A stretch of 64,000 bases of DNA. Origin: a virus. The notes beneath the pieces were generated by a model. The model did not search any database and had not been told where the DNA came from. It saw only the letters and a program-made list of their open reading frames with translations. Of the stretch, positions 48,970 through 62,961 are shown piece by piece (within the stretch, counting starts at the first letter, position 1; the number at the start of each line of letters is the position of its first letter). The DNA is taken from IMG/VR virus record IMGVR_UViG_3300031952_000008, positions 30,281 through 94,280 of that record. One strand, 5' to 3'. Both the position numbers and the translations under genes were made by a program.

Positions 48970-49254
48970 ATGGAACAAATAGAGTTTAAATTGTCGGATT
49001 TTGAAAAAGAAGGTATAGAAAAGAGATTATTACCTTTTATTGATGTATTACATTCAAAGGCATCAGGGTTTAAGAATGGAACTGATGGCTATAAGAAATG
49101 TTATAAAGATGAGGATACTTTTGTTACCAAACATATTAAGTCAAAAGGAATAAAAGATGAGGAAGAAATGGTAACTTCTATAATAGTCAATTATGATAAA
49201 GAAGGTTTAAAAATGATTCAAGAAGCCGCAAAAGAGGTAGAAAATAGTGGTTAA
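48970..49254 (+). CDS. Hypothetical protein
   Basis: ORF track; coupled to the next gene. Confidence 0.55.
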   Translation: MEQIEFKLSDFEKEGIEKRLLPFIDVLHSKASGFKNGTDGYKKCYKDEDTFVTKHIKSKGIKDEEEMVTSIIVNYDKEGLKMIQEAAKEVENSG

Positions 49255-49504
49255 GTTAGAAAATATAAAAATTGGACAAAAATATAAAGTAACAGGGTCT
49301 ATTGGAGAATGTTGGGCCAATAAGAAATGCAAGGATTGTTCGCCCTTCAAAGAAGGAGTAGTTGCTGAAAAAATAAATCCAGGACATGATACCTATAGCA
49401 ATAGAATAGTTTTTTGTAAAGGCATTACTGGTGGTCAATGTCATTTTAATCCTTTAGATTTAGAACCTTTTAATAAAAAATTGTTTGATTTGGAGATAAA
49501 ATGA
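49247..49504 (+). CDS. LMDL-tail family protein 1 (KKLFDLEIK)
   Basis: KOW-like start IKIGQKYKV; C-terminal motif variant. Confidence 0.7.
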   Translation: MVKLENIKIGQKYKVTGSIGECWANKKCKDCSPFKEGVVAEKINPGHDTYSNRIVFCKGITGGQCHFNPLDLEPFNKKLFDLEIK

Positions 49505-49610
49505 AAAACATAATTACATTACCATTTAGATTTATTAAAGGATTAATATTTAACTATGATATTTATGAAACCTTTAAATGGAATTGTAAATGTGTTTGGA
49601 ATGGTATAAA

Positions 49611-49925
49611 ATGAGTTTCAAAAAAGGAGATAGGGTTATTAAAGCAAGACCTTTTAGGAAGGATAAGTATTGTAAATGGGGAGGAGATAAAGCATATGTT
49701 CCTATAGGAACTAAAGGAACAATAACCCAAATTTCCGATATAAATGATGCCAAAGTTAGTTTTGATAATGGACTACGTTGGAGTGTTAGTCAGGAAGAAC
49801 TTGACCCATATAAAAGTAGTTTAATGGATTTAGAATATAAAGAGACCCCAAAAGTTCCAGAAATAAATTATTCGGATGATGAAGATGAAGAAGAACCAGA
49901 AGAAGAATGGCATGATGAAGACTAA
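49611..49925 (+). CDS. LMDL-tail family protein 2 (SSLMDLEYK plus acidic tail)
   Basis: FKKGDRV start. Confidence 0.7.
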   Translation: MSFKKGDRVIKARPFRKDKYCKWGGDKAYVPIGTKGTITQISDINDAKVSFDNGLRWSVSQEELDPYKSSLMDLEYKETPKVPEINYSDDEDEEEPEEEWHDED

Positions 49926-50038
49926 TAGTTGCCCAAGAGGAATGGAAGTTAAAAGCTGTGGCGATTGCCCATTATATATGGATAGTTGTAGGGGTAATGA
50001 AGCACAATGGGAATTAGAAGAATTGGAGGAGATTAATA

Positions 50039-50287
50039 ATGGCCCGTTTATTGCAGGATGAAAAAGTTAATGTAGGAGATAAGGTTATGCTAATAGATGA
50101 TGAACCTAACCAAAATCTTATAAAAAGAATATACGGGTTAAACCCTGTCATTGTTTTTAATACAATATATACCATTAAAGGATTTGATGATACTCTTATA
50201 CTTACAGAACCTAATATAGATGGTTATCTTTGTAAAATCAGATTTAGAAAGGCATTAATTAACCTAATGGATTTGGTAATAAAATGA
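50039..50287 (+). CDS. LMDL-tail family protein 3
   Basis: VNVGDKV; ends INLMDLVIK. Confidence 0.72.
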   Translation: MARLLQDEKVNVGDKVMLIDDEPNQNLIKRIYGLNPVIVFNTIYTIKGFDDTLILTEPNIDGYLCKIRFRKALINLMDLVIK

Positions 50288-50565
50288 TAGAAATTAAAGA
50301 TACCAAGATAAGAGTTAAGGATAGTAAAGAAAGTGCTCTTGTCCAGAAAAAGTTATTTAGTTTAGGATGTAGATGGGATAATAGAATAGAACAAGAACAA
50401 CGGTTAAAATTTTTAAGTTGTCCTTTCCTTTATATATCTAACGATTTAAGTTTAGGATATACAGACCATGGTAGTGACCATTTCTTTAGTATCCATAGAA
50501 ATAAAGAAATAACGGTTAAAGATTTATTATGTCCTAAGACATTAATGGATTTAGAGGTGAAATAA
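50284..50565 (+). CDS. LMDL-tail family protein 4 (non-KOW body)
   Basis: Ends PKTLMDLEVK. Confidence 0.72.
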   Translation: MIEIKDTKIRVKDSKESALVQKKLFSLGCRWDNRIEQEQRLKFLSCPFLYISNDLSLGYTDHGSDHFFSIHRNKEITVKDLLCPKTLMDLEVK

Positions 50566-50566
50566 T

Positions 50567-50857
50567 ATGACTTGGTTATGCTTGGCTTGTGGAAACAAAG
50601 AAGAATTTAAAGGATATTGTAACGGAACCTGTAGTTATACTGAAAGGGCTTACTTTGATGGAGAAGGAAGTGTTACAGAAACCACCGATTGCGATTATGA
50701 TAATTATGATGGTAATGATAGTGAGGTTGAAGAATGTGGTGTTTGTGGTAGTTGTGATATTCAATGTTTTGATACCAAAGAAGAAGCAGATGAGGCTTAT
50801 AAACTAAATAAGAAACCAAAGACTTTAATGAGTTTAGAGGTTAAAGATGACTCCTGA
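50567..50857 (+). CDS. LMDL-tail family protein 5 (acidic zinc-ribbon body)
   Basis: CLAC...CGVC; ends PKTLMSLEVKDDS. Confidence 0.7.
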   Translation: MTWLCLACGNKEEFKGYCNGTCSYTERAYFDGEGSVTETTDCDYDNYDGNDSEVEECGVCGSCDIQCFDTKEEADEAYKLNKKPKTLMSLEVKDDS

Positions 50858-51083
50858 AGAATTTAAAAATCTTAAGATAGGGGACGAATTAGTCTCCGTA
50901 AATGATGTTCCTTTCTTTACAAGAGGGATTAGAGTGGTAGTTAAAAGTATTAGTGAATGGGGACCACGAATTGAAGGAATAAAAAATGGTAAAGTATATG
51001 ATAAAGGTATTCCAGATGTGTATATGGATTATTATGAATTGATAAAAAAGAGACCTAAAACGTTGATGGACTTAAAAGTATGA
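50847..51083 (+). CDS. LMDL-tail family protein 6
   Basis: LKIGDEL; ends PKTLMDLKV. Confidence 0.72.
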   Translation: MTPEEFKNLKIGDELVSVNDVPFFTRGIRVVVKSISEWGPRIEGIKNGKVYDKGIPDVYMDYYELIKKRPKTLMDLKV

Positions 51084-51400
51084 AATACCTTAAAACAGAA
51101 GGAGGATACCTTGTAGAAAGTGAGAGTAAAGAAGGAACTTTTTACAATGTAAGTTTGGATTTCAAATCCTGTACCTGTCCTGCTTTTAAATACTTCCTTC
51201 ATTGTAAAGGAATGTGTAAGCATATGAGTGCGGTTGCTAATAAGGAAAAGAAGGATTTAACTAAAGAAACAAAGGACATAACATTTACTGATGGTAGTGA
51301 AGCCTTTGAGTTTGTTGATAAATACGGAGAAGAGAAACTTAATTTCCTTAAAAAAATAGGAGAAGTTTATGAACAAAATGGTAAACTATTCAAGATGTAA
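51080..51400 (+). CDS. SWIM zinc-finger protein
   Basis: YNVSLDFKSCTCP...CKH. Confidence 0.8.
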   Translation: MKYLKTEGGYLVESESKEGTFYNVSLDFKSCTCPAFKYFLHCKGMCKHMSAVANKEKKDLTKETKDITFTDGSEAFEFVDKYGEEKLNFLKKIGEVYEQNGKLFKM

Positions 51401-51507
51401 GAGGAAAAATAAAGATAAAAATATTTTTTGTAAAGGATTTAAGAATGGATGTAATTGTATCCTCTGTTGGGATAGAGCAATAAAATCTATAAAACTAGGG
51501 TGATAAA

Positions 51508-51852
51508 ATGAAATTCGAGGAAGCATGGGATAAAATGATGAAAGGAAAGATAGCAATATATACACCGATGGATTGGAAGTATCGTATCCATAATTATAAA
51601 TTACAATTTCAAGAAGATGGTAGATGGATTAATGAATGGGTTAATGATAAGTTCGTTGATATGATAATGAATGGTAATTGGAAGATGGATAAAGAACCAT
51701 TATATAATAAATCTAATTGTAATGGTAGTTATGAAGAAGAAGATATTGTGGAAGCATTAAAGAAGTATTTTGATTGGGAAGACGATGGTAACCAAAAAGT
51801 TTCTCATAAAACCAAATATGATAAAAGGAAAGAAATATTTGGCTGGTCATAA
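51508..51852 (+). CDS. Hypothetical protein
   Basis: GGGTGA RBS; MKFEEA start. Confidence 0.6.
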   Translation: MKFEEAWDKMMKGKIAIYTPMDWKYRIHNYKLQFQEDGRWINEWVNDKFVDMIMNGNWKMDKEPLYNKSNCNGSYEEEDIVEALKKYFDWEDDGNQKVSHKTKYDKRKEIFGWS

Positions 51853-51859
51853 TCATTTA

Positions 51860-51935
51860 GGCAGAGAAGTTCAATAGAACAACCAAAATTATTGAACCTT
51901 TTGGGAGGTTGTCAGTTCAAATCTGACCTCTGCCT
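51860..51935 (+). tRNA. Atypical tRNA-like element, anticodon unclear
   Basis: Acceptor stem GGCAGAG/CTCTGCC and T-arm GTCAG-TTCAAAT-CTGAC are canonical. D-arm GTTC-AATA-GAAC has only a 4-nt loop; anticodon arm CCAAAA/TTTTGG has a 10-nt loop. Confidence 0.55.
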
Positions 51936-51945
51936 ACCCCTCACA

Positions 51946-52200
51946 ATCATACCTTATGGAAATGGCTGTGATAGCCAAGGGAAGTCCTCTGGTAGAGGGT
52001 GGATAAGGCGTTCAATTCGCTATTTCGCTTCCTTATCACAATTCATAAGGTATGATATTTATAATCATATCCCTACGAAAGGGAATGGCGAATTAATCGG
52101 TATCTTCTAATAAAGATAACTGAAATATGTTGAATTGTGGACTGGAATACGCCACCTACCGATATTATCACCCCGTAATAGGGATATGATAACTCATATT
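51946..52200 (+). ncRNA. Putative structured non-coding RNA or leader upstream of the Ubl gene
   Basis: Nested inverted repeats: ATCATACCTTATG/CATAAGGTATGAT, TGTGAT/ATCACA, CCTCT/AGAGG, TCCCT/AGGGA, ATCGGTA/TACCGAT, TTATCA/TGATAA. Confidence 0.5.
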
Positions 52201-52265
52201 TACCCCAAGACTCAGTGGGTTTTAAGAAGGAGTCAATAGTAAAGTATTATTGGAGGTGGCTTAAT

Positions 52266-52580
52266 ATGCCTACTAAGAGACAGATTGCCGCACGAAAGGC
52301 TGTGGCTACAAGGAGAGCAAGAGCAGGTGTTGAAGCACCAGCAAGAGCAACAGGTGGAGCAATAGAAGTGAAGTATGGAAGGATGGGAATCAACGGTGTT
52401 AAAACCGCTTTGGTCGCTCCTGGCACAACTCACGAGGCTGCACTTAAACAAGCAGGAGTTGAACTAAACCCTGCTAAAGAGGGCATCCAAGACAAGAAGA
52501 CAGGAAACACGGTGATGTTTGCTGATGTTGTCGTGGAAGGCACATATATTGTGGCCCAAGGTATCAATTCAAGTATGTAA
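52266..52580 (+). CDS. Ubiquitin-like (beta-grasp) protein with basic N-terminal leader
   Basis: GGAGGTGG RBS before ATG 52266. IEVKYGRMG..VKTALVAPGTTHEAALKQAGVEL...ADVVVEG.YIV fits a ThiS/MoaD/Ubl beta-grasp pattern; first gene of the E2/JAB/E1 cluster. Confidence 0.65.
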   Translation: MPTKRQIAARKAVATRRARAGVEAPARATGGAIEVKYGRMGINGVKTALVAPGTTHEAALKQAGVELNPAKEGIQDKKTGNTVMFADVVVEGTYIVAQGINSSM

Positions 52581-52654
52581 ATTGAACCTAAAAGTTTTTT
52601 AAGGCATTTTTTTGTTTTTTGCCTAACATTTTTTAACCAATGAGGTGAGAAACT

Positions 52655-54139
52655 ATGATGAAATTAAAGGTTGATGAAAAGAACATTTTCCTATTCAATA
52701 AGTTATTGAAGTTAGGAAAGAAGAAAGATGATAATACGGTTGTAATTTCTACTCCTTTTAAGATAACAATAGAAGGAATAATGAAGGATGATAATATTGT
52801 AGAAATTCAGATAACTGCGGCAACAAAGCCAGGAGAGAAGTTCGTCCAAGATATGTTGGATAATTTAAGTTTTGTAACCGCTAAGGATATTGAAAAGACT
52901 GGGTTAACTTTGGATAATCTTAAGACAGCAGAGTATGACATGGTTTATTATGACCGAACCGAATTTCTTAGGAGAAAAGATTTGATTACCAAATTGGCTC
53001 CTGGGGTAGAATTCAATAAAGCTCTTACTGAGGGGTTCATTTATGATGAGATAACCATGAGTTTTAACCCAAAAATCAACAAAGTCTTCGGTGATGAGAA
53101 GGATACCGAGATACAAACAGAGTGGGATAAGGATAAACGAATGGTTTATTTACCAATTAACGATACTTCCGCAGATAAGAACGTGGTTGATACAAAAAAC
53201 AATATTATAGGAAAGTATTACAGAAATAGGAACACTATTGTATTAATGGTTAATCCCTTTAAGAACACGGATGAAGTAGTTAATGCCATAATAACAGGGT
53301 TAAGTGCTTTTGAAGTTAAGAAGGAAGACACGGAAAAGTTCAAGATGATTAATCTGGCTAAAACATTTACTAAGGACATATCAGTAAGATTAGCCGATAA
53401 AGAAAAACGAAAAACTAATATGGAGAAAGAGGTTAAAGATTACCAACAAGCAATAATGGATAAGTTTACAACTATCCAAATGGATAGTGAGGAAATAATT
53501 GCTTTAAAAAATATGAAGGATAACTTCAAGGAATCTTTCTTTAAAGAACTTAAAGCCACTAAAGAATTACAATTTATTAAAGATGTGGGATTTACACCAA
53601 CCGAAGTTCTTTTAACTTACAAACCTACTTGTATTACTGAACCTAATTTTATAAGGACAAGTAAAGAGTATGGTAAAAGAAGTATGTATGTTGGGGAGGT
53701 AATCATTAAAGTAGGAGCCGGACAAATTAAGATAGGTAATACTTTGGATTTAGAAATTTATAAAACACAAAACGACCCAAGTTCAGGAGTTGCTTATAAG
53801 TTTCCTCACCCACACGCTCACGATAATGGAGAATGTTGTTTAGGAAAAGAAGCAACCAAGGACACCATTTATATGCTAAAGAGTCAACTTAAATTCTCCG
53901 ATTTGGCAATTTATCTTTGTATGTTCGTTAGAAACTTTGGAACAGATGGTGGATTTATGGGTAAGCATAATTTGTATGATTTCTGTTTAATGAATGGCTA
54001 CCCAGTTTTTGATGAAAAAGGAAAACAAATATACATTAATGACCCTGAAAAAATAAAGAGTGGAGAACAAGTAGAAATGAAGAAGGCAAAGAACTGGGAA
54101 GAGAATGTTGCTAAATTTAAAGACTTTAAACCAAACTGA
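52655..54139 (+). CDS. E2-like conjugating enzyme with long N-terminal and coiled-coil extension
   Basis: C-terminal FPHPHAHDNGECCLG matches the E2 HP(H/N)-x-G-x-C-L motif; adjacent to the Ubl gene. Confidence 0.65.
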   Translation: MMKLKVDEKNIFLFNKLLKLGKKKDDNTVVISTPFKITIEGIMKDDNIVEIQITAATKPGEKFVQDMLDNLSFVTAKDIEKTGLTLDNLKTAEYDMVYYDRTEFLRRKDLITKLAPGVEFNKALTEGFIYDEITMSFNPKINKVFGDEKDTEIQTEWDKDKRMVYLPINDTSADKNVVDTKNNIIGKYYRNRNTIVLMVNPFKNTDEVVNAIITGLSAFEVKKEDTEKFKMINLAKTFTKDISVRLADKEKRKTNMEKEVKDYQQAIMDKFTTIQMDSEEIIALKNMKDNFKESFFKELKATKELQFIKDVGFTPTEVLLTYKPTCITEPNFIRTSKEYGKRSMYVGEVIIKVGAGQIKIGNTLDLEIYKTQNDPSSGVAYKFPHPHAHDNGECCLGKEATKDTIYMLKSQLKFSDLAIYLCMFVRNFGTDGGFMGKHNLYDFCLMNGYPVFDEKGKQIYINDPEKIKSGEQVEMKKAKNWEENVAKFKDFKPN

Positions 54140-54165
54140 TTATCGCCAGTTAAAAGGTGAATAGT

Positions 54166-54423
54166 ATGAAATACACGGACATAAAAGAAGGTATGTTAAT
54201 CAAATTGGTTAATGTAGGTTGTGAAGAGGATGATGAAGCATATACTGGTGCCTATGAAGGAGAGATTTTTAAGGTAGGAAAAATAAATAATAACTATGCC
54301 AATATTACAAGAGTTAGTGATGGTTGGGATAATTATTGTATTCCTGGCGAACCAGCAACTTATTGTGAGTGTTGGGAGCCAGTAATTGTTAAACCTAAAA
54401 CGTTAATGGAGTTGAAATTTTGA
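54166..54423 (+). CDS. LMDL-tail family protein 7
   Basis: IKEGMLIKL; ends PKTLMELKF. Confidence 0.72.
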   Translation: MKYTDIKEGMLIKLVNVGCEEDDEAYTGAYEGEIFKVGKINNNYANITRVSDGWDNYCIPGEPATYCECWEPVIVKPKTLMELKF

Positions 54424-54683
54424 AACTAGAAGATATTAAACCCGGAATGAAAATAAGATTAGTAACCCAAGAAGTAGGAGGTCATAAAGATTATTATAAT
54501 TATGATTGGAAAATTGGTGATATAATGCAGGTATTAGATATTGGGTTAACTTTATATAATCTTAGAACAAAACAAAAAAATTATTGTATACCAGAAGTTC
54601 GTATTCCTTGTATGGCAAACGAACATTATTATTCCGAGTTTTTTGAACCATTAAAAAAGACGCTTATGGACTTGAAAATATGA
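54420..54683 (+). CDS. LMDL-tail family protein 8
   Basis: IKPGMKIRL; ends KKTLMDLKI. Confidence 0.72.
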   Translation: MKLEDIKPGMKIRLVTQEVGGHKDYYNYDWKIGDIMQVLDIGLTLYNLRTKQKNYCIPEVRIPCMANEHYYSEFFEPLKKTLMDLKI

Positions 54684-54910
54684 AATGGGAAGATATTAAA
54701 ATAGGTATGTTAATAAAACTTATTGATAACCCAGCCAATTTTTATATAGGTTGTAATATTGGTGATATTTTTAAGGTAAAAAGAATGATGGACGCTCCTG
54801 ATTGGTATATTATTGAAGGCGTAAATAATGATGGAGTAAAAGGTTTAGGTAAAGATTATCTTAAATTTTGGGATTATTGTAATAGGAATCTTATGGATTT
54901 AAAAATATAA
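54680..54910 (+). CDS. LMDL-tail family protein 9
   Basis: IKIGMLIKL; ends RNLMDLKI. Confidence 0.72.
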   Translation: MKWEDIKIGMLIKLIDNPANFYIGCNIGDIFKVKRMMDAPDWYIIEGVNNDGVKGLGKDYLKFWDYCNRNLMDLKI

Positions 54911-54967: not shown

Positions 54968-56089
54968 ATGACCAAGTATCGTGGAACTATCGTTTTGAAA
55001 AAGAAGCCATATAAGATAATAGAATGGCTAACAATGAACTTTGATAAGGAAATAGGTGCCATTGGAATAGGGCAAGTAGAAGATGGTATCTTGTATGTTG
55101 AGAAACTATTCTTCCCAAAACAAGAAGTTACAGCCGCCCATATTCACATAGACCCTGCTGGATTCGGGGACATAATTAGAGAACTGAGCATGGAAGACCT
55201 TGGTAGAATTAATTTTTACTGGCATAAACATCCTGATGGATATGCTGGACATAGTGGAGGAGATGAAGAGGAAACCATTGATGTATTCATGGATGAAAGT
55301 TATGGTAGGAAAATCATGGGATTTCTTGTAACTTCTAATTACAGCGGAACTATGAAACAGGATTGTCGAATTGAAATTAGAGACCCAGTTTGGGCAAGTA
55401 TAGAAAGTCAAGCAATTTCTGAGGAAGACACGGCTGTAGAGGAAGAGTGTAGAAAAATTCTTGAAAAATGTATCATTAAACCAGTAGAAAGAAAGGAAAC
55501 TCCAGAATTTGCTAAGTGGAAAGATAAATTATTACAAACAGGTCATAATTGTACTAGAACAGACCAAGGGCTCTTAAGAGATTGTGGAATAGATAGGACA
55601 CTTAATTACAACAATACCTGTGGAGAAACTGGCGACCTTAAATTATCTGATATGATTGGAAATATGGTCAGGAACAAGAAGAAACTTACCAGGTTTGTTA
55701 GTAAAGATGAGGACTTGAATGAGGAAATAGAAATATTAGTAGGAAATGGTATGGGCTTTGTGGTTGCTTACGCTAAATACCAACCTATTCTTGCTGATTT
55801 CTTCAAGGATGCTATGGATTTGTTTAGTGATATTGTAACCGTAGAAAAAGATGGTTTAGTTAAATACAATTTAGTTCCTAAGGCTAAAATGTATGATAAA
55901 ATGAAGGAAGAACTTAAGAAATTATATTCCTTAATAGACCAGGAAAAGAAAAGATTAAAAACGGATGAGATAGTAGCAGGAGCCAAAGTAGAAACTCCAG
56001 CACCAAAATCGGATAAAGATATTGTAATGAAAGGCTATCCTGATATGACTGGTATGACTAAAGGACAACGTGACTTTTATTTCGGATGA
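54968..56089 (+). CDS. JAB/JAMM metallo-isopeptidase with C-terminal extension
   Basis: E(IG)...WHKHPDGYAGHSGGD fits E-xn-H-x-H-x7-S-x2-D exactly. Confidence 0.88.
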   Translation: MTKYRGTIVLKKKPYKIIEWLTMNFDKEIGAIGIGQVEDGILYVEKLFFPKQEVTAAHIHIDPAGFGDIIRELSMEDLGRINFYWHKHPDGYAGHSGGDEEETIDVFMDESYGRKIMGFLVTSNYSGTMKQDCRIEIRDPVWASIESQAISEEDTAVEEECRKILEKCIIKPVERKETPEFAKWKDKLLQTGHNCTRTDQGLLRDCGIDRTLNYNNTCGETGDLKLSDMIGNMVRNKKKLTRFVSKDEDLNEEIEILVGNGMGFVVAYAKYQPILADFFKDAMDLFSDIVTVEKDGLVKYNLVPKAKMYDKMKEELKKLYSLIDQEKKRLKTDEIVAGAKVETPAPKSDKDIVMKGYPDMTGMTKGQRDFYFG

Positions 56090-56450: not shown

Positions 56451-56705
56451 ATGAAACTATCCGATTTTAAAGAAGGTATGAAAGTAAGATTTGCTAAAAA
56501 CTTCGGTCCCAAACACCAAGATTATACTTTTAAAATAGGAGATATAATAGAAATAACAAGGATAGGTATGGGTTCAATATCTCTTTTTAACCCAAGAACT
56601 AAGGAAGACCAATATGGTATTCCTTTAAATCATAAAGATACTAATGAATTTTTAAACCAGTTTGAACCGATTAGAACTTGTTTAATGGATTTAACGATGA
56701 GGTGA
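56451..56705 (+). CDS. LMDL-tail family protein 10
   Basis: FKEGMKVRF; ends TCLMDLTMR. Confidence 0.72.
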   Translation: MKLSDFKEGMKVRFAKNFGPKHQDYTFKIGDIIEITRIGMGSISLFNPRTKEDQYGIPLNHKDTNEFLNQFEPIRTCLMDLTMR

Positions 56706-56710
56706 AAATA

Positions 56711-56920: not shown

Positions 56921-57085
56921 ATTATCATTGTATTGGTAGATTTAAAAGTAGAGAAGAATGTTTAAGAAGATTACAACCTTTTAAAGAAAAAGGTTTTGAA
57001 ATAAAAACGGTTTTGCGTGGTAAAAGATATAACCCAAATAAATTATATGCGGCTGTTTATATAACTAAATAATGAGGTGAAAAAC

Positions 57086-57850
57086 ATGGCTTTGAATTTA
57101 AGCAAACAGGCACTTCTTATTGATGATGCCAAAGTAAAAAAATATACGGTACATATATTTGGATTGGGTAGCATAGGTAGTCATTTGGGTAGAGCACTTT
57201 GTAAAACGGGTTTCGTTAATATAGTAGGTTATGATTTTGATACCGTTGACGAAGATAATATTCCTGCCCAAGCGTTCAGTCCTAAACATATTGGTATGAA
57301 AAAGACCGAAGCGTTTAAACAAATGTTAATAGAGGAGACAGGGATAGAACCAATAGTTTATGATGGTAAAGTTGATGAAAAGACCGAGATTAAAATAGAG
57401 GCTAATTCTATATACTTTGTGGCTTTTGATAGTATCCCTGCTAGAAAACTTGTTTGGGATAAAGTAAAGAACTTCCCAGTTCCTTATGGAGAGACTAGGA
57501 TTGGAATGTTTGATTATCGTTTCTATTTTGTAGTGCCAGGGAAGACTCCTATGGATTGGAAGTTCGGGTATGAGAAATTACTTGACCCTAATCAACCAAT
57601 GACCGAACTTAAATGTGGAGAGAAATGTAGTTTCGGTCCCAACACTTACTTGGTATCCTTAGTATTAAGGCAGATGCTTAACATAATAGAGGAGAAAGAC
57701 CTTATATATTCTTACATAGGTAATTGGCTTACTCCAGATAACATAATTATTAAATCAACTTGGTTAGATAAACAACAGGAAGAAGAAAAAGAAGAAGTTG
57801 AACTATCCGAGTTTGAGAAAGACCTCAAAATCGTTGAGGAAATTATTTAG
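57086..57850 (+). CDS. E1-like ThiF/MoeB adenylyltransferase
   Basis: GLGSIGS, DFDTVDEDNI, IGMKKTEA, FDSIPAR and ETRIG; candidate catalytic Cys in ELKCGEKC. Confidence 0.9.
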   Translation: MALNLSKQALLIDDAKVKKYTVHIFGLGSIGSHLGRALCKTGFVNIVGYDFDTVDEDNIPAQAFSPKHIGMKKTEAFKQMLIEETGIEPIVYDGKVDEKTEIKIEANSIYFVAFDSIPARKLVWDKVKNFPVPYGETRIGMFDYRFYFVVPGKTPMDWKFGYEKLLDPNQPMTELKCGEKCSFGPNTYLVSLVLRQMLNIIEEKDLIYSYIGNWLTPDNIIIKSTWLDKQQEEEKEEVELSEFEKDLKIVEEII

Positions 57851-57876
57851 GCTGGTCGCATTAACGCCAGTTAGAG

Positions 57877-58146
57877 GTGATTAGTATGACAGATATTGAC
57901 CCAGAAGATGATTGGCCATATGATGCCATAGAATTAAGAATAGGAGAGTTTATAGAGTTTGATGATGGTCTAATAGGAGAAATCATAGAGGTAGATGTAG
58001 AGTTTAATAATGTATTAGTTAGATTACCAGAACAATATTTGGATTTCAACACAGACCCTACAACAGAAGATATAGAAGATATGGTAGAAAATGGTTTTTG
58101 GAGTGCTGATGTTAAAATGATAAGGAACATGGTGGAGTATGTATAA
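57877..58146 (+). CDS. Acidic KOW/SH3-like protein without an LMDL tail
   Basis: LRIGEFIEF...GEIIEV; very Asp/Glu-rich. Confidence 0.6.
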   Translation: MISMTDIDPEDDWPYDAIELRIGEFIEFDDGLIGEIIEVDVEFNNVLVRLPEQYLDFNTDPTTEDIEDMVENGFWSADVKMIRNMVEYV

Positions 58147-58383
58147 ATTCAAAGTAGGAGAGACTTGGTAGAATTTATAGATGACGCACTTCCTGATGTA
58201 TTATTAAAAGGAAAAATAGTAATGGATGCCAAAGATAAAACATTTTATTTAGAAATTCTTTATCCTAAAGGATTTGGTTGGACTGGTTCCGGATTTAAAA
58301 ATGATAATGGTAATAAATATTGGTGTGTAAGTAAAAGAAGGCTTAGATTAACAAAGAAAAACCTTATGGACTTGGTAATATGA
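58139..58383 (+). CDS. LMDL-tail family protein 11, with a 2-nt frameshift near the 5' end
   Basis: ATG 58139 gives MYKFKVG. Removing one GA from GGAGAGAC restores FKVGDLVEF; ends KNLMDLVI. Confidence 0.6.
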
Positions 58384-58943
58384 GCAAACAATTCAATTAT
58401 AGCAGGGCAAGAACCATCAATAAAAAGGATGTTAATTCCGAATATATTGAAATAATCAAGGATTTGGATTGTAAAGAAGGTAACCACCTAATTTTAGATA
58501 GCCGTTTCAAAAATACTACTAAGGCTCTTAATTCAATAAAGATACCTATACGAAACATTTATATTCCTAATCCATACGAAAAAGTGGATGCTCCAAATTG
58601 GTCTAACCAGTTTGTGGGCGACTTCTTAAATTCTTGGACGGGTGGAGCGTTCCGGACGGTATACTTAGACTATTGTTGTACCCTTGAAGGAAATGCGGAA
58701 ACTCGTCCGAGATTTGATATTCAAAAGTTAATGGAAAAACGATTGGTAAATGGAGTATTAGGAATTGAACTGAATAGGAGAGACCCAAGAAAAAGTGGAG
58801 GAGTTCGTAGTTGGGGTGACATTTGTGACCTTATTAATTACGTTGAAAACCTTGCCTATGAAAACCATTACACTTATCAAGTAATAGATGGATGGACATA
58901 CGGACAAATGTTCGTGGTGTTCTTCAATTTGGTGAAAGGATGA
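58380..58943 (+). CDS. Hypothetical, possibly a divergent methyltransferase fold
   Basis: FRTVYLDYC resembles a motif-IV-like segment; weak. Confidence 0.4.
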   Translation: MSKQFNYSRARTINKKDVNSEYIEIIKDLDCKEGNHLILDSRFKNTTKALNSIKIPIRNIYIPNPYEKVDAPNWSNQFVGDFLNSWTGGAFRTVYLDYCCTLEGNAETRPRFDIQKLMEKRLVNGVLGIELNRRDPRKSGGVRSWGDICDLINYVENLAYENHYTYQVIDGWTYGQMFVVFFNLVKG

Positions 58944-59197
58944 TTAAAGAATTTAAATCAGGAAAATGGTATAGACTTAACCCGCAAGGAGTAAAATACG
59001 TTAGTTGGAATAATAAAGGCGATATGAATTTCCTTAAAGATTTTAAATATCATCAATGTAATAGAGGACATGATTATTTTGCCTCTTTTTATGATTGTAA
59101 AATTCCTAGTTATGGTTGGAGTTTTAATAACTCCTTAGAGTTCTTTGATGAAAGAGATAATGGTAAGATGAACCTTATGGATTTGGTGATAAAATGA
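58940..59197 (+). CDS. LMDL-tail family protein 12
   Basis: FKSGKWYRL; ends MNLMDLVIK. Confidence 0.72.
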   Translation: MIKEFKSGKWYRLNPQGVKYVSWNNKGDMNFLKDFKYHQCNRGHDYFASFYDCKIPSYGWSFNNSLEFFDERDNGKMNLMDLVIK

Positions 59198-59451
59198 CTA
59201 AAAAAGATTTAAAAATAGGTGATAAAGTAAGATTTAAATACGAAGGGCTTGACTCCATAGGAACTATTTTCAAAGATAGAGGAACTAATTATTATTTAAT
59301 TAAATTATTACCTGAACATGAAAAAGATGGTGGCTGGCCCGAAAAAGATGGAAGAATAGAAAATAACCTACCTATTGGTAAATATTGGAATGTTCCTGGA
59401 AGACATATTGAATCATTAGTTCCTAAATCATTGATGGACTTAGTATTATAA
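59194..59451 (+). CDS. LMDL-tail family protein 13
   Basis: LKIGDKVRF; ends PKSLMDLVL. Confidence 0.72.
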   Translation: MTKKDLKIGDKVRFKYEGLDSIGTIFKDRGTNYYLIKLLPEHEKDGGWPEKDGRIENNLPIGKYWNVPGRHIESLVPKSLMDLVL

Positions 59452-59575
59452 TCATTCGCCTTTAAAAAGACGGTGATGGCATTTCGGTCATTTTGGCCGT
59501 TAAAAATGACCACTAAGGGTGCTGGGTTGAGTAACACGCCTATAGAACTTAACCCAGATACTCAATACTTATCAT
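59452..59575 (+). ncRNA. Intergenic multi-hairpin element
   Basis: GGTCATTTT/AAAATGACC, CTGGGTTGAGT/ACTTAACCCAG, plus a weaker 5' stem. Confidence 0.4.
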
Positions 59576-59585
59576 AGGTGTTATT

Positions 59586-59810
59586 ATGGAATTTAAAGTT
59601 GGAGATAAAGTTAAAGTAGTTCACATGCCAAGCGAGTGTGATGGAGGCTTTCCTAAAGAAATGTTGGGTAAAATTGTAACAATAGATGATGTTTGGTTAG
59701 ATTTACTTGGTGTTATTTATACAATTAATAAAAATAGGTGGTGTTCTAATTTTATAGAATCCGATTTAGAACATATAAGAAAGAACTTAATGGATTTGGA
59801 AGTGAAATAA
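59586..59810 (+). CDS. LMDL-tail family protein 14
   Basis: FKVGDKVKV; ends KNLMDLEVK. Confidence 0.72.
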   Translation: MEFKVGDKVKVVHMPSECDGGFPKEMLGKIVTIDDVWLDLLGVIYTINKNRWCSNFIESDLEHIRKNLMDLEVK

Positions 59811-59812
59811 AA

Positions 59813-60028
59813 ATGTTTAAAAAAGGAGATAAGGTCACTTTAAAAGACGGAACAGAATTTAAGCACCAACAAGGAACTGCTAAGTTTGGAACTATCTTAA
59901 ATGATGAATCCCTCACAATGTGGATTAAAGTAAGATGGGGAAAAGGATGTGAAAGGAGAGAAGATGTTTATCCTATTAAAGATTTGTTACTTTTAAAACC
60001 TCAAAAGTTAATGGATTTAGTATTTTAG
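59813..60028 (+). CDS. LMDL-tail family protein 15
   Basis: FKKGDKV; ends QKLMDLVF. Confidence 0.72.
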   Translation: MFKKGDKVTLKDGTEFKHQQGTAKFGTILNDESLTMWIKVRWGKGCERREDVYPIKDLLLLKPQKLMDLVF

Positions 60029-60090
60029 ATAAGTTTAAATACCAGAACATTCATAATAATTATTGAAAGAAACACTTTCGGAGTTGCGTT

Positions 60091-60957
60091 ATGGAAACAT
60101 TAAGTAAGGTAGATGATATAATGTATTTATCACCCAGCAGTATTAACGACTATTTTCGTTGCCCCTATTTTTTCTTTAAAAGCCATATAGAAAAGGTTCC
60201 TATCAAAAAGACCATTCACTTAGTTAAAGGAACCGTTGTTCATAATTCATTAGAGAAATGGTTTATGGAATACACGGATGACTTAGTTAAAGGAATGGAA
60301 GATATTTTTAATAGAGAGTGGGAAATCAATCCTGAACTTAAAGACCTTAAACTTCCTGATGAAGAATTGGTTATGCATAAAAAGGATGCTTGGAATATTG
60401 TTACTAAATTTGTAACAAGACACCTTGATAAAATAGAGGGTATTATTGATGCTGGTAAGGCTGAGAATTATAGACACGCTTGGTATCTTTTAAGACCTAA
60501 ACTTAACGAGGTTAAACTAGAAGTTCCCGAAATGAAAGTTAGGGGTAAAGCAGATAGGGTTTATGAAAACTTTGATGGATTAGTAACTCTTGGAGATTAC
60601 AAAACCAGTAATAGGTATGGTATCGGAATTACTGAAGACCAAAGGCGACAAATAGCCATTTATGCTCTTATGTATCTGGAACAAGAAAAGAAACCTTTAC
60701 ATTTCGTGTCCATAATCTTCCTTAGATTTGGAGAGGAACCAATGTTAGAAGTAACACCTGACCTTATTAAGTTTGGAAGAGATACGGTATTATATGTAAG
60801 GGAGAAAACAATGAGTAGGAACATTGATGACTATCCTAAGAAACTTAGTTCTAATTGCCAGAATTGTGCTCTTTTAGAACTTTGTAGTGGGGCGGAAGAA
60901 TTCGTATCTAAACTTAGGAAGGAAAAGTTTAAAAAGTTAGCGGAGAAACTTAAATGA
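60091..60957 (+). CDS. Cas4-like / RecB-family PD-(D/E)XK exonuclease
   Basis: LSPSSI...CP, GTVVH, RGKADR, GDYKT, QIAIYA and C-x2-C-x4-C. Confidence 0.9.
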   Translation: METLSKVDDIMYLSPSSINDYFRCPYFFFKSHIEKVPIKKTIHLVKGTVVHNSLEKWFMEYTDDLVKGMEDIFNREWEINPELKDLKLPDEELVMHKKDAWNIVTKFVTRHLDKIEGIIDAGKAENYRHAWYLLRPKLNEVKLEVPEMKVRGKADRVYENFDGLVTLGDYKTSNRYGIGITEDQRRQIAIYALMYLEQEKKPLHFVSIIFLRFGEEPMLEVTPDLIKFGRDTVLYVREKTMSRNIDDYPKKLSSNCQNCALLELCSGAEEFVSKLRKEKFKKLAEKLK

Positions 60958-61178
60958 AAAAGGAAGATTTCAAGGTTGGAATGAAGATAGAACTATTCTC
61001 TAAAATAGGTGAGAAACATTGTTCTGGCTTAAATCTTGGAGAAGTTTATACGGTTAATAATATAGAAGATAAACGGGTATATATAATATCTTCCTACGAA
61101 GAACACTTAACCATTTGGAACTGTTGTTTTAGATACGTTAAAAAGGTAAAATCTACATTGATGGATTTGAAAATATGA
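60954..61178 (+). CDS. LMDL-tail family protein 16
   Basis: FKVGMKI; ends STLMDLKI. Confidence 0.72.
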   Translation: MKKEDFKVGMKIELFSKIGEKHCSGLNLGEVYTVNNIEDKRVYIISSYEEHLTIWNCCFRYVKKVKSTLMDLKI

Positions 61179-61399
61179 ACGAAAAAGAACGGGAACAATT
61201 TCCTAGTGGAATCGTTACTATGATTCTTAATAGGAACTTTAATGATTGTAAAAAGGGAGATAAAGTTGATATGTTTAAACTTCCATACACTAATGAGTTT
61301 TGGGTACAAAATTCAAAAAAAGAAACATTTAAAGTATATGGTAAAGATTATCAATGGTTTGATTATCCCAAAAAAACTTTGATGGATTTACAATGGTGA
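61175..61399 (+). CDS. LMDL-tail family protein 17
   Basis: KKGDKV; ends KTLMDLQW. Confidence 0.72.
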   Translation: MNEKEREQFPSGIVTMILNRNFNDCKKGDKVDMFKLPYTNEFWVQNSKKETFKVYGKDYQWFDYPKKTLMDLQW

Positions 61400-61644
61400 A
61401 ATGGAAAGAGATTAGAAAAGGTATGAAACTTAGATTAATGAAAAGACCAAGAACGCATCCGGAGAATGGTTATAACCCTTTAGAAATTGGAGATATTGTA
61501 ACGGTAACTAAAAAAAATAAGGAAGGATACTGGGACATAGTAAATGATAAATATGATGTTGTTTTTGGGTTATCTAACGATAAAGATTGGTTAGCGGTTT
61601 GGGAACTTGTTTATCCCAAGTGTTTGATGGATTTAAAAATGTAA
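61393..61644 (+). CDS. LMDL-tail family protein 18
   Basis: IRKGMKLRL; ends PKCLMDLKM. Confidence 0.72.
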   Translation: MVKWKEIRKGMKLRLMKRPRTHPENGYNPLEIGDIVTVTKKNKEGYWDIVNDKYDVVFGLSNDKDWLAVWELVYPKCLMDLKM

Positions 61645-61655
61645 AGGTGTTACGA

Positions 61656-61913
61656 ATGGTAGATATTGAAGTATTGAAAGAATTTATTAAGTTAAAATTA
61701 AAAGAAATAGGAATATTATTATGTTTTATCATAGGTATAATTGGGTTATGTCTTATTACGGCATTCTTAATACATATTATACCACAATTTTGGTTAACAA
61801 TACTAAAATATTTTGTAGTAATAATATTTATTTTAATGATATTGGTTAGTTTGGTTGTTTGGTTAAAAGATAATTGGGACCAAGCACAGATGAATATTTA
61901 TTTAAGAAGGTGA
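61656..61913 (+). CDS. Two-TM membrane protein
   Basis: Two hydrophobic helices. Confidence 0.6.
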   Translation: MVDIEVLKEFIKLKLKEIGILLCFIIGIIGLCLITAFLIHIIPQFWLTILKYFVVIIFILMILVSLVVWLKDNWDQAQMNIYLRR

Positions 61914-62074
61914 AATCATGGCAAAACTTAAAAAGGTTTGTATAGTAAATTTAGATGGAGATAGTATTATAACAGATATGGTTAATAGAGAAAGGCTTAT
62001 AGCATTATTATCTCCACACTTTGATTTGGCTGACGAAGGAGATAGAATTGAAGTTTTTGAAAGAGGTGAACAAA

Positions 62075-62380
62075 ATGGATGATATACTTTTTAAAGGACT
62101 AAAAGTGGGAATTAAGAAGGGAGAACCTAACTACATTCCTCCTTCAATACCTTTATCTACAAAAATATGTTCTAATTGTGGCGGAGTTATGGAACTTAGA
62201 CCATTAGATTGTTATTGGATAAAAGGAGAAGAAGGATATTATATCGTGGGTAGAAATTCTAAGAATGAATTATTCCTCAAAAGTGAGATGGTTAATAAAC
62301 TTCTTTATGGTTGTAAAACTTGTACCTTTGCTGAAACCGTTAATGTAAAGCCTATGGAAGAAGAGATAGTGGTGGTTTAA
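62075..62380 (+). CDS. Zinc-ribbon protein
   Basis: CSNC...CKTC; GAGGTGA RBS. Confidence 0.6.
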   Translation: MDDILFKGLKVGIKKGEPNYIPPSIPLSTKICSNCGGVMELRPLDCYWIKGEEGYYIVGRNSKNELFLKSEMVNKLLYGCKTCTFAETVNVKPMEEEIVVV

Positions 62381-62488
62381 AACGAAACCCAATTATAAAA
62401 AAGGATACTTTATATTAATGGAGTATTGGGATAGTTTACCAGATGAACAAAAGGAAGATATACATAAAGAATTAGTAGAGTGTGGGTT

Positions 62489-62701
62489 ATGAAATGTCTT
62501 TGTATAAAAGATGGGTTTACAGATGGTGGTAAACAATTTGCTTATAAGGGAAAGAGTTATGAATATATTGGTGAAGGAACACATATGCAACTTAAGACCG
62601 AAGGCATGGATGATTTTAAACATTATATTGGAGATATGAAATGGTTTAATAAATATTTTACTTTAGCCCCTAAAAATTTAATGGATTTGGTAATGATATG
62701 A
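62489..62701 (+). CDS. LMDL-tail family protein 19
   Basis: Ends PKNLMDLVMI. Confidence 0.7.
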   Translation: MKCLCIKDGFTDGGKQFAYKGKSYEYIGEGTHMQLKTEGMDDFKHYIGDMKWFNKYFTLAPKNLMDLVMI

Positions 62702-62961
62702 AAAAACTTAAAGTTGGAATGGTTTGTAAGTATAGAAACATAATGACAATGTTTCCTACCGAAATATGGAGAAAAAAGATTTTAAAGGTCAAAATTGTAG
62801 AAATCAAAGATAGAGAATATACTATCCAATTCTTACATTATCCTGATATTGGTCATGGTACGAGAGAACAAGATGGTGTACAATTTAAAGGTTACTGGTT
62901 TGTTCAGAAAGAGGACTTAGAATATTTGGGTCCAAGTTGTTTGATGGATTTGAAAATATGA
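62698..62961 (+). CDS. LMDL-tail family protein 20
   Basis: LKVGMV; ends SCLMDLKI. Confidence 0.72.
   Translation: MKKLKVGMVCKYRNIMTMFPTEIWRKKILKVKIVEIKDREYTIQFLHYPDIGHGTREQDGVQFKGYWFVQKEDLEYLGPSCLMDLKI

What the first reader, a model, noticed from the sequence alone, without database searches (positions are those of the whole stretch)
49247..62961. Twenty small divergent proteins share one C-terminal LMDL motif and are interleaved with a ubiquitin-like pathway: candidate adaptor library
Seen: 20 ORFs of about 70-105 aa carry [K/P]-[K/T/N/S/C]-L-M-D-L-[K/E/V]-[I/V/F/L]. In 19 it lies within about 10 residues of the stop; variants are LFDL, LMSL and LMEL. The bodies are very divergent: most start with a KOW/SH3-like pattern (FKVGDKV, IKIGM), but one is a zinc ribbon (50567) and one is an unrelated fold (50284), so the tail has been attached to different domains. 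It is always in frame and its codons vary synonymously (TTA/TTG/CTA/CTT for Leu, GAT/GAC for Asp), which points to selection on the peptide. Three members sit between E2 and JAB and one between JAB and E1. Inference: a variable target-binding domain plus a constant docking tail, like the substrate receptors of eukaryotic cullin ligases or poxviral ankyrin/F-box proteins, could aim the viral Ubl machinery at many host proteins. Alternatives are a PCNA PIP-box-like motif (compare QxxLxxF), a degron, or a virion-loading signal. I do not know of a described system like this.
Basis: partly seen in the sequence, partly recalled or inferred. Interest (0 to 1): 0.95.

Follow-up and report, generated by a model that had tools for sequence, protein, structure and literature searches.

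The report
Shared tail tag around viral ubiquitin-like genes
About twenty unrelated small proteins of a probable archaeal tailed virus end in the same short peptide tag, and related viruses carry a different tag on the same proteins, always next to ubiquitin-like conjugation genes, which points to one shared, co-evolving reader that is still unidentified.

Summary
All 20 ORFs exist, and the 94-kb virus contig holds 2 more. Every + strand L-M-D-L in the genome lies in such a tail.

Selection acts on the peptide. The only variable bases of the 12-nt core are its four synonymous sites. The residues after the core also encode the next gene's Shine-Dalgarno sequence.

The tail is an add-on to different bodies: an SH3-like barrel (modelled), a phrog_17589-type domain whose homologue in a bacterial phage lacks the tail, and a Cys-rich protein.

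Related viruses carry the same gene module (Ubl, E2-like, JAB, E1, a conserved 187-aa protein) and orthologous small proteins, but with other tails: [S/T]-L-K-E-L-L-E in one group and S-W-K-E-R-Y-E in another. The tails changed in concert. In both long contigs they cluster tightly around the Ubl cassette.

This fits a tag read by one lineage-specific partner, most plausibly part of the cassette. No binding was shown and the partner is unknown. PCNA docking, a degron and translational coupling remain rivals.

I found no description of such a system.

The parts
49247..49504 (+). tail protein, 85 aa, L-F-D-L variant
   Evidence: ortholog L139:1699-1956 (39% id) carries the W-type tail instead
49611..49925 (+). 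tail protein, 104 aa; core is internal, followed by a 30-aa acidic extension
   Evidence: weak DUF4314/SH3-like Pfam hits
50039..50287 (+). tail protein, 82 aa
   Evidence: near-identical relative P0011 keeps the tail
50284..50565 (+). tail protein, 93 aa, non-SH3 body
   Evidence: body matches phrog_17589, E 2.5e-9, residues 5-78; Aeromonas phage P19 homologue ends where the body ends, without a tail
50567..50857 (+). tail protein, 96 aa, Cys-rich (zinc-ribbon-like by CxxC pattern), L-M-S-L variant
   Evidence: ortholog L139:11608-11967 (34% id) has the W-type tail
50847..51083 (+). tail protein, 78 aa
54166..54423 (+). tail protein, 85 aa, core SH3-like paralog, L-M-E-L variant; lies between E2-like and JAB
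54420..54683 (+). tail protein, 87 aa, core SH3-like paralog (the one modelled)
   Evidence: AF2 pLDDT 78, SH3-like barrel; tail residues 80-87 under pLDDT 50
54680..54910 (+). tail protein, 76 aa, core paralog
56451..56705 (+). tail protein, 84 aa, core paralog; lies between JAB and E1
   Evidence: strain-level breakpoint at 56708, just after its stop
58165..58383 (+). tail protein, 72 aa
58892..59197 (+). tail protein, 101 aa, non-core body
   Evidence: ortholog L003:3467-3715 has an L-I-S-L-L-E-E tail; window and L001 diverge right after the core
59194..59451 (+). tail protein, 85 aa
   Evidence: coupled to the next gene in strain L001, uncoupled here by a 131-nt insertion
59586..59810 (+). 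tail protein, 74 aa
59813..60028 (+). tail protein, 71 aa
60954..61178 (+). tail protein, 74 aa, core paralog
61175..61399 (+). tail protein, 74 aa
61393..61644 (+). tail protein, 83 aa, core paralog
   Evidence: strain-level joint 61645->62072 starts at its stop
62489..62701 (+). tail protein, 70 aa
62698..62961 (+). tail protein, 87 aa
   Evidence: relatives P0006 and P0008 keep the core while the residues after it differ
52266..52580 (+). putative Ubl (beta-grasp assumed, not verified), conserved C-terminus G-[IV]-[DN]-S-S-x
   Evidence: homologues next to the E2-like gene in L003, L004, L005 and L139; no Pfam or PDB sequence match
52655..54139 (+). E2-like protein, 494 aa; UBC-like region about 291-432, motif H-P-H-x-H-x5-C-C-L-G at residues 385-397
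   Evidence: about 35 of the top 50 VIA rows are UBC E2s, Z 5.2-6.3, about 100 aligned residues; motif kept in L139; model pLDDT only 67
54968..56089 (+). JAB/JAMM peptidase, 373 aa, with a lineage-specific C-terminal half
   Evidence: H-x-H-x7-S-x2-D at residues 86-99; Atlas lead Prok-JAB, score 0.95; 50% id to L139 over residues 1-169 only
57077..57850 (+). E1-like adenylyltransferase, 257 aa
   Evidence: Pfam ThiF 1.7e-14; 46 homologues
58380..58943 (+). conserved 187-aa protein of unknown function inside the tail-gene array
   Evidence: homologues in L003 (55% id) and L139 (26% id, E 5e-11); no family or PDB match
51080..51400 (+). SWIM-like Cys/His protein, 106 aa, conserved module member without a tail
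   Evidence: homologues in L005 and L139
60091..60957 (+). PD-(D/E)XK (Cas4-like) nuclease inside the array
   Evidence: Pfam 2.5e-18; 40% id homologue in L139

Best explanation
The tail ([K/P]-x-L-M-D-L-x-hydrophobic) is a short C-terminal recognition tag. It is selected as a peptide and appended to at least 22 small proteins with different bodies: SH3-like barrels, a phrog_17589-type domain, a Cys-rich protein and others. It sits on a flexible end just after the folded domain and is read by one common partner that co-evolves with it. This is why related viruses carry orthologous proteins with a different but internally uniform tail (L-K-E-L-L-E or W-K-E-R-Y-E). The most likely reader is a component of the adjacent virus-encoded Ubl/E2-like/JAB/E1 module. 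The tagged proteins would then be either substrates or substrate-selecting adaptors of Ubl conjugation in an E3-less system. The last 2-3 codons also serve as the ribosome-binding site of the next, overlapping gene. The conserved junction is a frequent breakpoint of cassette exchange between strains. Shown: peptide-level constraint, modularity, concerted change between lineages, and clustering round the cassette. Inferred: a single partner (about 0.7) and that it belongs to the Ubl module (about 0.4).
For: Peptide level: the variable bases of the core are exactly the four synonymous sites, and codon diversity at the first Leu and the Asp equals genome-wide usage. The rare replacements are conservative (F for M, E or S for D). 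By contrast, a second junction repeat in the same genome (8 copies, L007:100-2212) is 80-100% identical at all codon positions. Modularity: only six members are clear paralogs by BLASTP, and the others share only the tail. The 50284 body belongs to phrog_17589, and its Aeromonas phage homologue stops before the tail. The modelled member is an SH3-like barrel with a low-confidence tail. Concerted change: E2-anchored metagenome loci have small ORFs ending in [S/T]-L-K-[D/E]-L-[L/I]-E. Of 36 other small family members found in 1.84 billion representatives, 31 show that K-type tail. IMG/VR contig G001/L139 has about 17 ORFs ending in [S/T/N]-W-[K/R]-E-R-Y, again with synonymous codon variation. 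Orthologous bodies carry different tails in different lineages. On a tree of the bodies the M-type tail needs at least 3 changes. Link to the cassette: Ubl, E2-like, JAB, E1, the 187-aa protein and the nuclease are conserved between G000 and G001. In G001 all tails lie at 59.9-75.5 kb around the cassette at 65.5-69.3 kb of a 96.7-kb contig. In G000 tails are on 19 of 29 small ORFs in the 13.8 kb round the cassette against 2 of 51 elsewhere (Fisher 2.6e-9). Precedent: the minimal E1 UBA5 binds its E2 through a C-terminal helical short motif with the pattern L-x-x-L-M (PMC8481289).
Against: No interaction was shown. The clustering could reflect how arrays of small accessory genes grow, not shared function. 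All relatives were found with E2 or E1 queries, so co-occurrence is ascertained from one side only. In the K-type and W-type lineages the K-E or W-R-E codons themselves spell a Shine-Dalgarno sequence (AAGGAG, GGAGG) for the next gene, so part of the conservation there is dual-coded. At least two of the six 'uncoupled' tails in the window are coupled in sister strains. The second Leu is restricted to TTR. Two tails lie far from the cassette on the contig. Two of the roughly 17 G001 copies of the motif sit at an N-terminus.
Confidence: 0.4

Rival explanations
1. The tail is a PIP-box-like peptide that docks the small proteins on the host sliding clamp PCNA, like the C-terminal clamp-binding motifs of archaeal replication proteins.
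For: The tail is at the extreme C-terminus, as archaeal PIP motifs usually are (PMC3504372). The K-type consensus has the hydrophobic-x-x-hydrophobic-hydrophobic spacing, some relatives have F or W at the first aromatic position, and S/T precedes the first hydrophobic residue. The virus's own family-B polymerase ends in N-S-S-I-K-R-W-L, close to one K-type tail in L003. The array also holds replication and recombination genes: PD-(D/E)XK nuclease, prim-pol, and RadA next to one outlier tail.
Against: The conserved Gln is absent or displaced by one residue, and most tails lack aromatic residues. The W-type tail (W-K-E-R-Y) does not fit the spacing. A conserved host hub would not predict a wholesale, concerted switch of tail type between related viruses. 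More than twenty clamp binders have no obvious rationale. No PCNA gene was found on the 82%-complete contig.
Confidence: 0.13
2. The tail is a C-terminal degron that hands these early proteins to a protease or unfoldase (host proteasome/PAN, or the virus's own classical AAA ATPase) for timed turnover, independently of Ubl conjugation.
For: It is an exposed, flexible, partly hydrophobic C-terminal tag on many unrelated proteins. The virus encodes a classical-clade AAA ATPase most similar to proteasome-activating nucleotidases, though below family cut-offs. Lineage-specific tags would fit a virus-encoded reader.
Against: The AAA gene lies outside the tail cluster on the contig, at genome 7789-9033. 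No protease partner is evident. The tag tolerates 1-17 extra residues, and even 30 in one case, which is unusual for tags read from the free end.
Confidence: 0.12
3. The conservation serves translation or recombination rather than the mature protein. The junction (tail codons, SD, overlapping start) is kept for translational coupling, possibly with a nascent-peptide effect at termination, or as a homology patch for cassette shuffling, and the peptide is a passenger.
For: 14 of 22 tails are followed within 2-14 nt by the next start. Several others prove coupled on inspection or in sister strains. SD sequences are embedded in or just after the tail in all three lineages. Strain comparisons put mosaic breakpoints at the tail end (56708, 61645, 49495, 59442; window versus L001 diverge right after the core). 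The same genome has a truly nucleotide-level junction repeat.
Against: Variation confined to synonymous sites, with normal codon diversity, is the signature of amino-acid selection. K to M (AAG to ATG) destroys the SD yet Met is kept in 21 of 22 copies, whereas AAA would have kept Lys. Arg codons switch between AGA and CGN in the W-type tails. The distance from the tail to the next start varies (1-10 residues to the stop in G001, up to 17 in K-type proteins). The hydrophobic pattern is kept with different codons across lineages.
Confidence: 0.1
4. The tail is a virion-loading or other targeting signal (compare the capsid targeting sequence of T4 internal proteins or encapsulin cargo peptides), or a handle by which the family members assemble with each other.
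For: A short shared peptide on diverse small proteins is how such signals look. The virus has an HK97-type capsid. A virus-encoded receptor would explain lineage-specific tails.
Against: The genes sit in the replication/accessory arm, not with the structural genes. Nothing links them to capsid or portal. The clustering is round the Ubl cassette, not round the head genes.
Confidence: 0.07

Closest known systems
Families of substrate receptors with a shared docking module (F-box, SOCS/BC-box; poxviral ankyrin-PRANC proteins)
   Same: Many paralogous or unrelated target-binding bodies carry one constant C-terminal element that plugs into a conjugation machine. The family is expanded in a virus and encoded in arrays.
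   Different: This comparison rests on general knowledge, not on a test here.
UBA5 C-terminal UFC1-binding sequence (E1-to-E2 short linear motif)
   Same: An extreme C-terminal, helical, hydrophobic short motif (L-x-x-L-M...) that docks on the backside of an E2, in a system whose E1 is a minimal ThiF-type enzyme (PMC8481289). The viral E1 is also minimal (257 aa), and its own C-terminus contains K-D-L-K-I.
   Different: In UBA5 the motif is on the E1 itself, not on a library of other proteins. The viral E1 C-terminal motif has a different hydrophobic spacing from the tails, so the likeness is only a lead.
PIP-box / archaeal C-terminal PCNA-interacting peptides
   Same: Position at the extreme C-terminus, S/T before the first hydrophobic residue, and hydrophobic-x-x-hydrophobic-hydrophobic spacing in the K-type tails.
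   Different: No conserved Gln at the right distance, mostly aliphatic instead of aromatic residues, and the W-type tail does not fit.
Prokaryotic Ubl/E1-like/E2-like/JAB operons (Iyer, Burroughs and Aravind 2006, type 6d; later called Bil antiviral systems)
   Same: The same four components in one cluster, with no E3 (PMC1779556; 10.1101/2023.09.26.559546 listed).
   Different: Those are bacterial, mostly chromosomal defence operons with one extra alpha-helical protein. This one is in a probable archaeal virus, its E2-like protein has a 290-residue N-terminal extension, and it is flanked by the tagged small-protein arrays.
Capsid targeting sequence of phage T4 internal proteins
   Same: A short conserved peptide shared by otherwise unrelated small viral proteins (own knowledge).
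   Different: That one is N-terminal, is cleaved by the prohead protease and is encoded with head genes. None of this is seen here.

Membership tests
Peptide-level short linear motif (as opposed to a nucleotide-level repeat) | Variation confined to synonymous sites; always in one reading frame | tested here: met
   Entropy is high only at core positions 1, 3, 9 and 12. 22 of 22 copies are in frame. Codon diversity at Leu1 and Asp equals genome usage. The contrast is the junction repeat.
Peptide-level short linear motif | Lies in a flexible region outside the folded domain | tested here: met
   AF2 model of 54420-54683: barrel pLDDT 82-92, tail residues 80-87 mean 49. Only one member was modelled.
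Peptide-level short linear motif | Binds a defined partner | not testable with these tools
   The one complex job gave no answer (see Tried and rejected). The host is unknown.
Adaptor/substrate-receptor library of a Ubl ligase | Constant docking element on variable bodies | tested here: met
Adaptor/substrate-receptor library of a Ubl ligase | Co-occurrence with the conjugation genes across genomes | tested here: inconclusive
   Met in every relative with enough flanking DNA (L001, L003-L006, L139/G001), but all were found through E2 or E1. The reverse direction could not be tested.
Adaptor/substrate-receptor library of a Ubl ligase | Docking element binds E2/E1/Ubl/JAB; bodies bind targets | not tested
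PIP-box | Q-x-x-[L/I/M]-x-x-[F/Y/W]-[F/Y/W/L] at a terminus | tested here: not met
   The window tails lack the Gln (except one, Q-K-L-M-D-L-V-F) and lack aromatic residues. In K-type tails the Gln is one residue too close. The W-type does not fit (consensus from PMC3504372).
SH3-like small beta-barrel (core members) | Five-stranded barrel similar to SH3/KOW/Tudor | tested here: met
   VIA Z 5-7 to SH3, KOW, Tudor, FeoA and CPH domains over 50-70 residues. This Z range shows a shared fold only.
Ubl conjugation cassette | E1: ThiF-type adenylation domain | tested here: met
   Pfam PF00899 1.7e-14; G-L-G-S-I-G at residue 29
Ubl conjugation cassette | E2: UBC fold with catalytic Cys after an H-P-x motif | tested here: inconclusive
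   Motif at residues 385-397, conserved in L139. About 35 of the top 50 VIA rows are E2s, but Z is only 5.2-6.3 on a low-confidence region, and Foldseek gave no significant hit. No Pfam hit.
Ubl conjugation cassette | JAB: JAMM motif H-x-H-x7-S-x2-D | tested here: met
   residues 86-99; Atlas lead Prok-JAB
Ubl conjugation cassette | Ubl: beta-grasp fold with a C-terminal Gly | not tested
   Only conservation and position are shown. The C-terminus is G-[IV]-[DN]-S-S-x, not G-G.

The most novel reading that the evidence does not exclude
A group of archaeal tailed viruses carries a self-contained, E3-less ubiquitin-like conjugation machine that is programmed by a library of 15-22 small proteins. 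Each has its own target-binding body and a common 6-8-residue C-terminal plug for the machine. Plug and socket co-evolve as a private pair in each viral lineage (three 'alleles' seen: L-M-D-L-K-I, L-K-E-L-L-E, W-K-E-R-Y-E). New specificities are acquired by cassette exchange at the conserved junction.
Probability: 0.25. Interest if true: 0.95.

Novelty: new variant of a known kind. Interest (0 to 1): 0.8.

Why it matters
If the tag is read by the viral Ubl machinery, this would be the first prokaryotic-virus counterpart of the eukaryotic scheme of many receptors on one ligase. It would show how an E2 without an E3 can be aimed at many targets, and it would give a set of about 20 candidate host-targeting modules per virus.

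They are also a clear case of concerted evolution of a short linear motif across a gene array.

The finding is a practical warning too: the C-terminal residues of tightly coupled phage genes are partly dictated by the next gene's ribosome-binding site.

Tried and rejected
1. Complex prediction of P. furiosus PCNA (a stand-in, host unknown) with the 54420 member gave 'no answer', score 0.02 against a mark of 0.32. This is no evidence either way.

The contigs of the roughly 36 related tail proteins and 46 E1 homologues could therefore not be read, and the reverse co-occurrence test was not possible.

3. IMG/VR searches found nothing further. This covers the E2 protein and its alignment, a body-motif DNA pattern, and K-type and W-type tail patterns. 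The last found only random matches plus G001 again.

5. The 'phages' collection has no relative of the E2-like protein, E1 or the core tail protein. TerL has only distant matches.

6. Sequence searches of the PDB with E2, JAB, Ubl and the 187-aa protein found nothing credible.

7. Alignments A1 and A4 were too divergent for the search for related loci.

8. No RNA holder was listed among the sequencing runs.

9. I considered and set aside several resemblances because short-motif likenesses were many and mutually inconsistent. These were SUMO-interaction motifs (fits L-M-D-L but not L-K-D-L-I), the BRC 'L-F-D-E' motif for RadA, MIT-interacting motifs, PDZ ligands (extra residues are tolerated) and an acceptor-lysine consensus (Lys is not conserved in the window tails).

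10. I also set aside the idea that the E1 C-terminus carries the same tag: it shares K-D-L-K-I, but the hydrophobic spacing differs.

Full report
**1. Observation**

- The 20 ORFs are real.
- A six-frame scan shows that every + strand L-M-D-L in the window, and three one-residue variants, lies 2-6 residues before the stop of a 70-104-aa ORF between 49247 and 62961. The exception is 49821, where a 30-residue acidic extension follows.
- The window is the last 64 kb of a single 94,280-bp virus contig. Scanning the whole contig adds two tails, at genome 3048 and 10236, giving 22 in all.
- Chance predicts about 0.3 L-M-D-L in the whole proteome.

**2. Peptide or nucleotide?**

- Within the 12-nt core the entropy per base is 0.85, 0, 1.49 / 0.27, 0, 0.27 / 0.27, 0.27, 0.94 / 0, 0, 0.99. 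The four variable bases are exactly the four sites where a change is synonymous.
- Codon diversity at the first Leu (TTG 8, TTA 8, CTT 4, CTA 2) and at Asp (GAT 16, GAC 4) matches genome-wide usage.
- The few replacements are conservative.
- The genome contains an internal contrast. A different junction repeat (8 copies, L007:100-2212) is 80-100% identical over 21 nt at all codon positions.
- The L-M-D-L core is therefore selected as a peptide.
- Two nucleotide-level overlays exist. The second Leu is only TTR (0 of 22 CTN against 39% expected). The 2-3 residues after the core spell GGTGA or GAGGTGA, the Shine-Dalgarno sequence of the next gene, whose start mostly overlaps the stop.

**3. What the proteins are**

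- By BLASTP only six members (54166, 54420, 54680, 56451, 60954, 61393) are clear paralogs. Many pairs align only over the last 8-10 residues.
- The model of 54420-54683 (pLDDT 78) is an SH3-like barrel, with VIA Z 5-7 to SH3, KOW, Tudor and FeoA domains. Its tail falls below pLDDT 50 and forms at most one helical turn.
- The body of 50284-50565 matches phrog_17589 (E 2.5e-9, residues 5-78). Its homologue in the T4-like Aeromonas phage P19 ends where the body ends, so the last 11 residues here are an add-on.
- 50567-50857 is Cys-rich (CxxC pairs).

**4. The virus and the Ubl cassette**

- The contig encodes a portal, an HK97-type major head protein, a tape measure and TerL.
- It also encodes an archaeal-type RadA above NCBIfam's equivalog cut-offs (388 bits against 259), a family-B polymerase and a classical AAA ATPase. 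It is therefore probably an archaeal tailed virus.
- It occurs in several sediment metagenomes. IMG/VR rates it 82% complete.
- E1 is a ThiF-type enzyme (Pfam 1.7e-14).
- JAB has the JAMM motif at residues 86-99 and an Atlas lead to Prok-JAB.
- The E2-like protein has no family hit. Its residues 291-432 align to dozens of UBC enzymes (about 35 of the top 50 rows, Z 5.2-6.3), and an H-P-H-x-H...C-L-G motif is conserved in a 26%-identical relative. The model is weak there, so I call it E2-like, probable.
- The Ubl is assigned only by position and conservation.

**5. Relatives: the decisive part**

- The protein databases hold only near-identical copies of the window tail proteins, and these keep the core.
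- Four E2-like relatives (44-49% identity) led to six metagenome loci. In the diverged ones (L003-L006) the small ORFs next to Ubl and E2 end in [S/T]-[L/M]-K-[D/E]-L-[L/I]-E(-E).
- A profile of the core family searched against 1.84 billion representatives found 73 proteins. Of 36 small ones not from this virus, 31 carry that K-type tail, mostly two residues before the end. Consensus: E-P-V-x-Q-[T/S]-L-K-E-L-L-E.
- An alignment of E1 homologues then found IMG/VR contig G001 (96,731 bp; locus L139). It has Ubl, E2-like, JAB (50% identity), E1 (52%), the conserved 187-aa protein, the SWIM-like protein and the PD-(D/E)XK nuclease in the same order.
- G001 also has about 17 small ORFs with a third tail, [S/T/N]-W-[K/R]-[E/D/K]-[R/N/H]-Y-[E/G]. 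These lie 1-10 residues from the stop, all on one strand, with Arg codons switching between AGA and CGN.
- Orthologous bodies carry different tails:

| Window gene | Window tail | Ortholog | Ortholog tail |
|---|---|---|---|
| 49247 | L-F-D-L | L139:1699 (39% identity) | W-R-E-R-Y |
| 50567 (Cys-rich) | L-M-S-L | L139:11608 (34% identity) | W-K-E-T-Y |
| 58892 | L-M-D-L | L003:3467 | L-I-S-L-L-E-E |
| 50284 | L-M-D-L | L004:9 | M-K-E-L-L-E |

- On a tree of core bodies with the tails removed, window paralogs interleave with K-type relatives, and the M-type tail needs at least three changes.
- The tails of one genome therefore evolve in concert.

**6. Clustering**

- In G001 all tails lie at 59.9-75.5 kb, around the cassette at 65.5-69.3 kb.
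- In G000, 19 of 29 small ORFs in the 13.8 kb round the cassette are tagged, against 2 of 51 elsewhere (Fisher 2.6e-9).
- Other arrays of small genes in this genome lack the tag.

**7. Strain level**

- Contigs of sister strains and locus L001 show replacements and indels that begin at the tail ends (56708, 61645, 49495, 59442).
- At 59174 the window and L001 are identical up to the end of the core and diverge from the next codon on.
- The listed single-base differences inside tails are synonymous (59789, 60010, 62692) or conservative at a variable position (59802). Only 40 of 635 differences were displayed.
- Two tails that look uncoupled in the window are directly coupled in sister strains.

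**8. Mechanism**

- A tag that is uniform within a genome, differs between related genomes, sits on orthologous and unrelated bodies, and is selected as a peptide is best explained by one common reader that co-evolves with it.
- A virus-encoded reader fits the wholesale switches better than a conserved host hub. The only conserved multi-protein system inside the arrays is the Ubl module.
- I therefore rank 'tag read by the Ubl module (substrate or adaptor tag)' first, at about 0.4.
- The UBA5-UFC1 case shows that a C-terminal helical short motif can dock on an E2 (PMC8481289).
- Rivals are PCNA docking, a degron, coupling or recombination at the RNA/DNA level, and virion loading. They are set out with their evidence in the Rival explanations section.
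- Nothing here shows binding. The single complex job is reported under Tried and rejected.

**9. Comparison and novelty**

- The nearest known kinds are substrate-receptor families with a shared docking module (F-box, SOCS-box, poxviral PRANC), E1-to-E2 short motifs, PIP boxes, and the bacterial Ubl/E1/E2/JAB operons of Iyer et al. 2006.
- None has the combination seen here.
- My literature searches turned up no description of tagged small-protein arrays around a viral Ubl cassette.
- I rate it a new variant of a known kind, with high interest because the three tag types make the partner question directly testable.

Noticed in passing
window 59443-59573: A 131-nt, GC-richer insertion, relative to strain L001 and run X2, sits directly after the L-M-D-L codons of gene 59194-59451. 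It contains a perfect 9-bp hairpin (GGTCATTTT / AAAATGACC). It uncouples the tail gene from the next gene and could be a terminator, a small RNA or a miniature mobile element.
   Followed up: partly
L007:100-2212 (genome 100-2212, before the window): Eight copies of a 21-nt junction repeat (about AAAGAGTTTGAGGAGTTG) lie before the starts of micro-genes. They are conserved at all codon positions. When read in frame they give L-K-E-F-E-E-L, which resembles the K-type tails of related viruses, so the two junction types may share an origin.
   Followed up: partly
L007:882-1133: At least ten tandem 18-nt repeats inside ORF 859-1344 encode a Cys-x-N-S-T-x hexapeptide repeat, that is, repeated N-glycosylation sequons.
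   Followed up: no
L007:11463-13775: The viral family-B DNA polymerase ends in N-S-S-I-K-R-W-L, a PIP-like C-terminus, while no PCNA gene is found on the 82%-complete contig. The virus probably uses the host clamp.
   Followed up: partly
window 58380-58943; L003:3717-4274; L139:5176-5805: A 185-209-aa protein with no detectable family or solved relative is conserved in all three lineages inside the tail-gene arrays (invariant I-L-D, Y-x-D-Y, G-N). It is a candidate member of the module.
   Followed up: partly
window 57077-57850 and homologues P0090-P0135: E1 homologues have conserved C-terminal peptides beyond the adenylation domain: E-K-D-[L/F]-x-hydrophobic-hydrophobic-E-E in the close group and E-V-P-K-E-I-K-Y-D in a large distant group of about 40 clusters. 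These may be E2- or Ubl-docking motifs, as in UBA5.
   Followed up: partly
L139:5807-6025 and 6001-6330: In G001 two ORFs carry the W-K-E-[H/R]-Y motif at their N-terminus instead of the C-terminus. They may be fusions made by loss of the upstream gene body.
   Followed up: no
L003:1670-2164: A 164-aa metallophosphatase-like protein in a K-type relative ends in a tail-like I-I-K-E-L-E-E-W-K-K, so the tag may also sit on an enzyme.
   Followed up: no
L007:7789-9033: The virus encodes a classical-clade AAA ATPase. Its best, sub-threshold similarity is to proteasome-activating nucleotidases, FtsH, Cdc48 and CdvC. This is of interest beside a Ubl system.
   Followed up: partly
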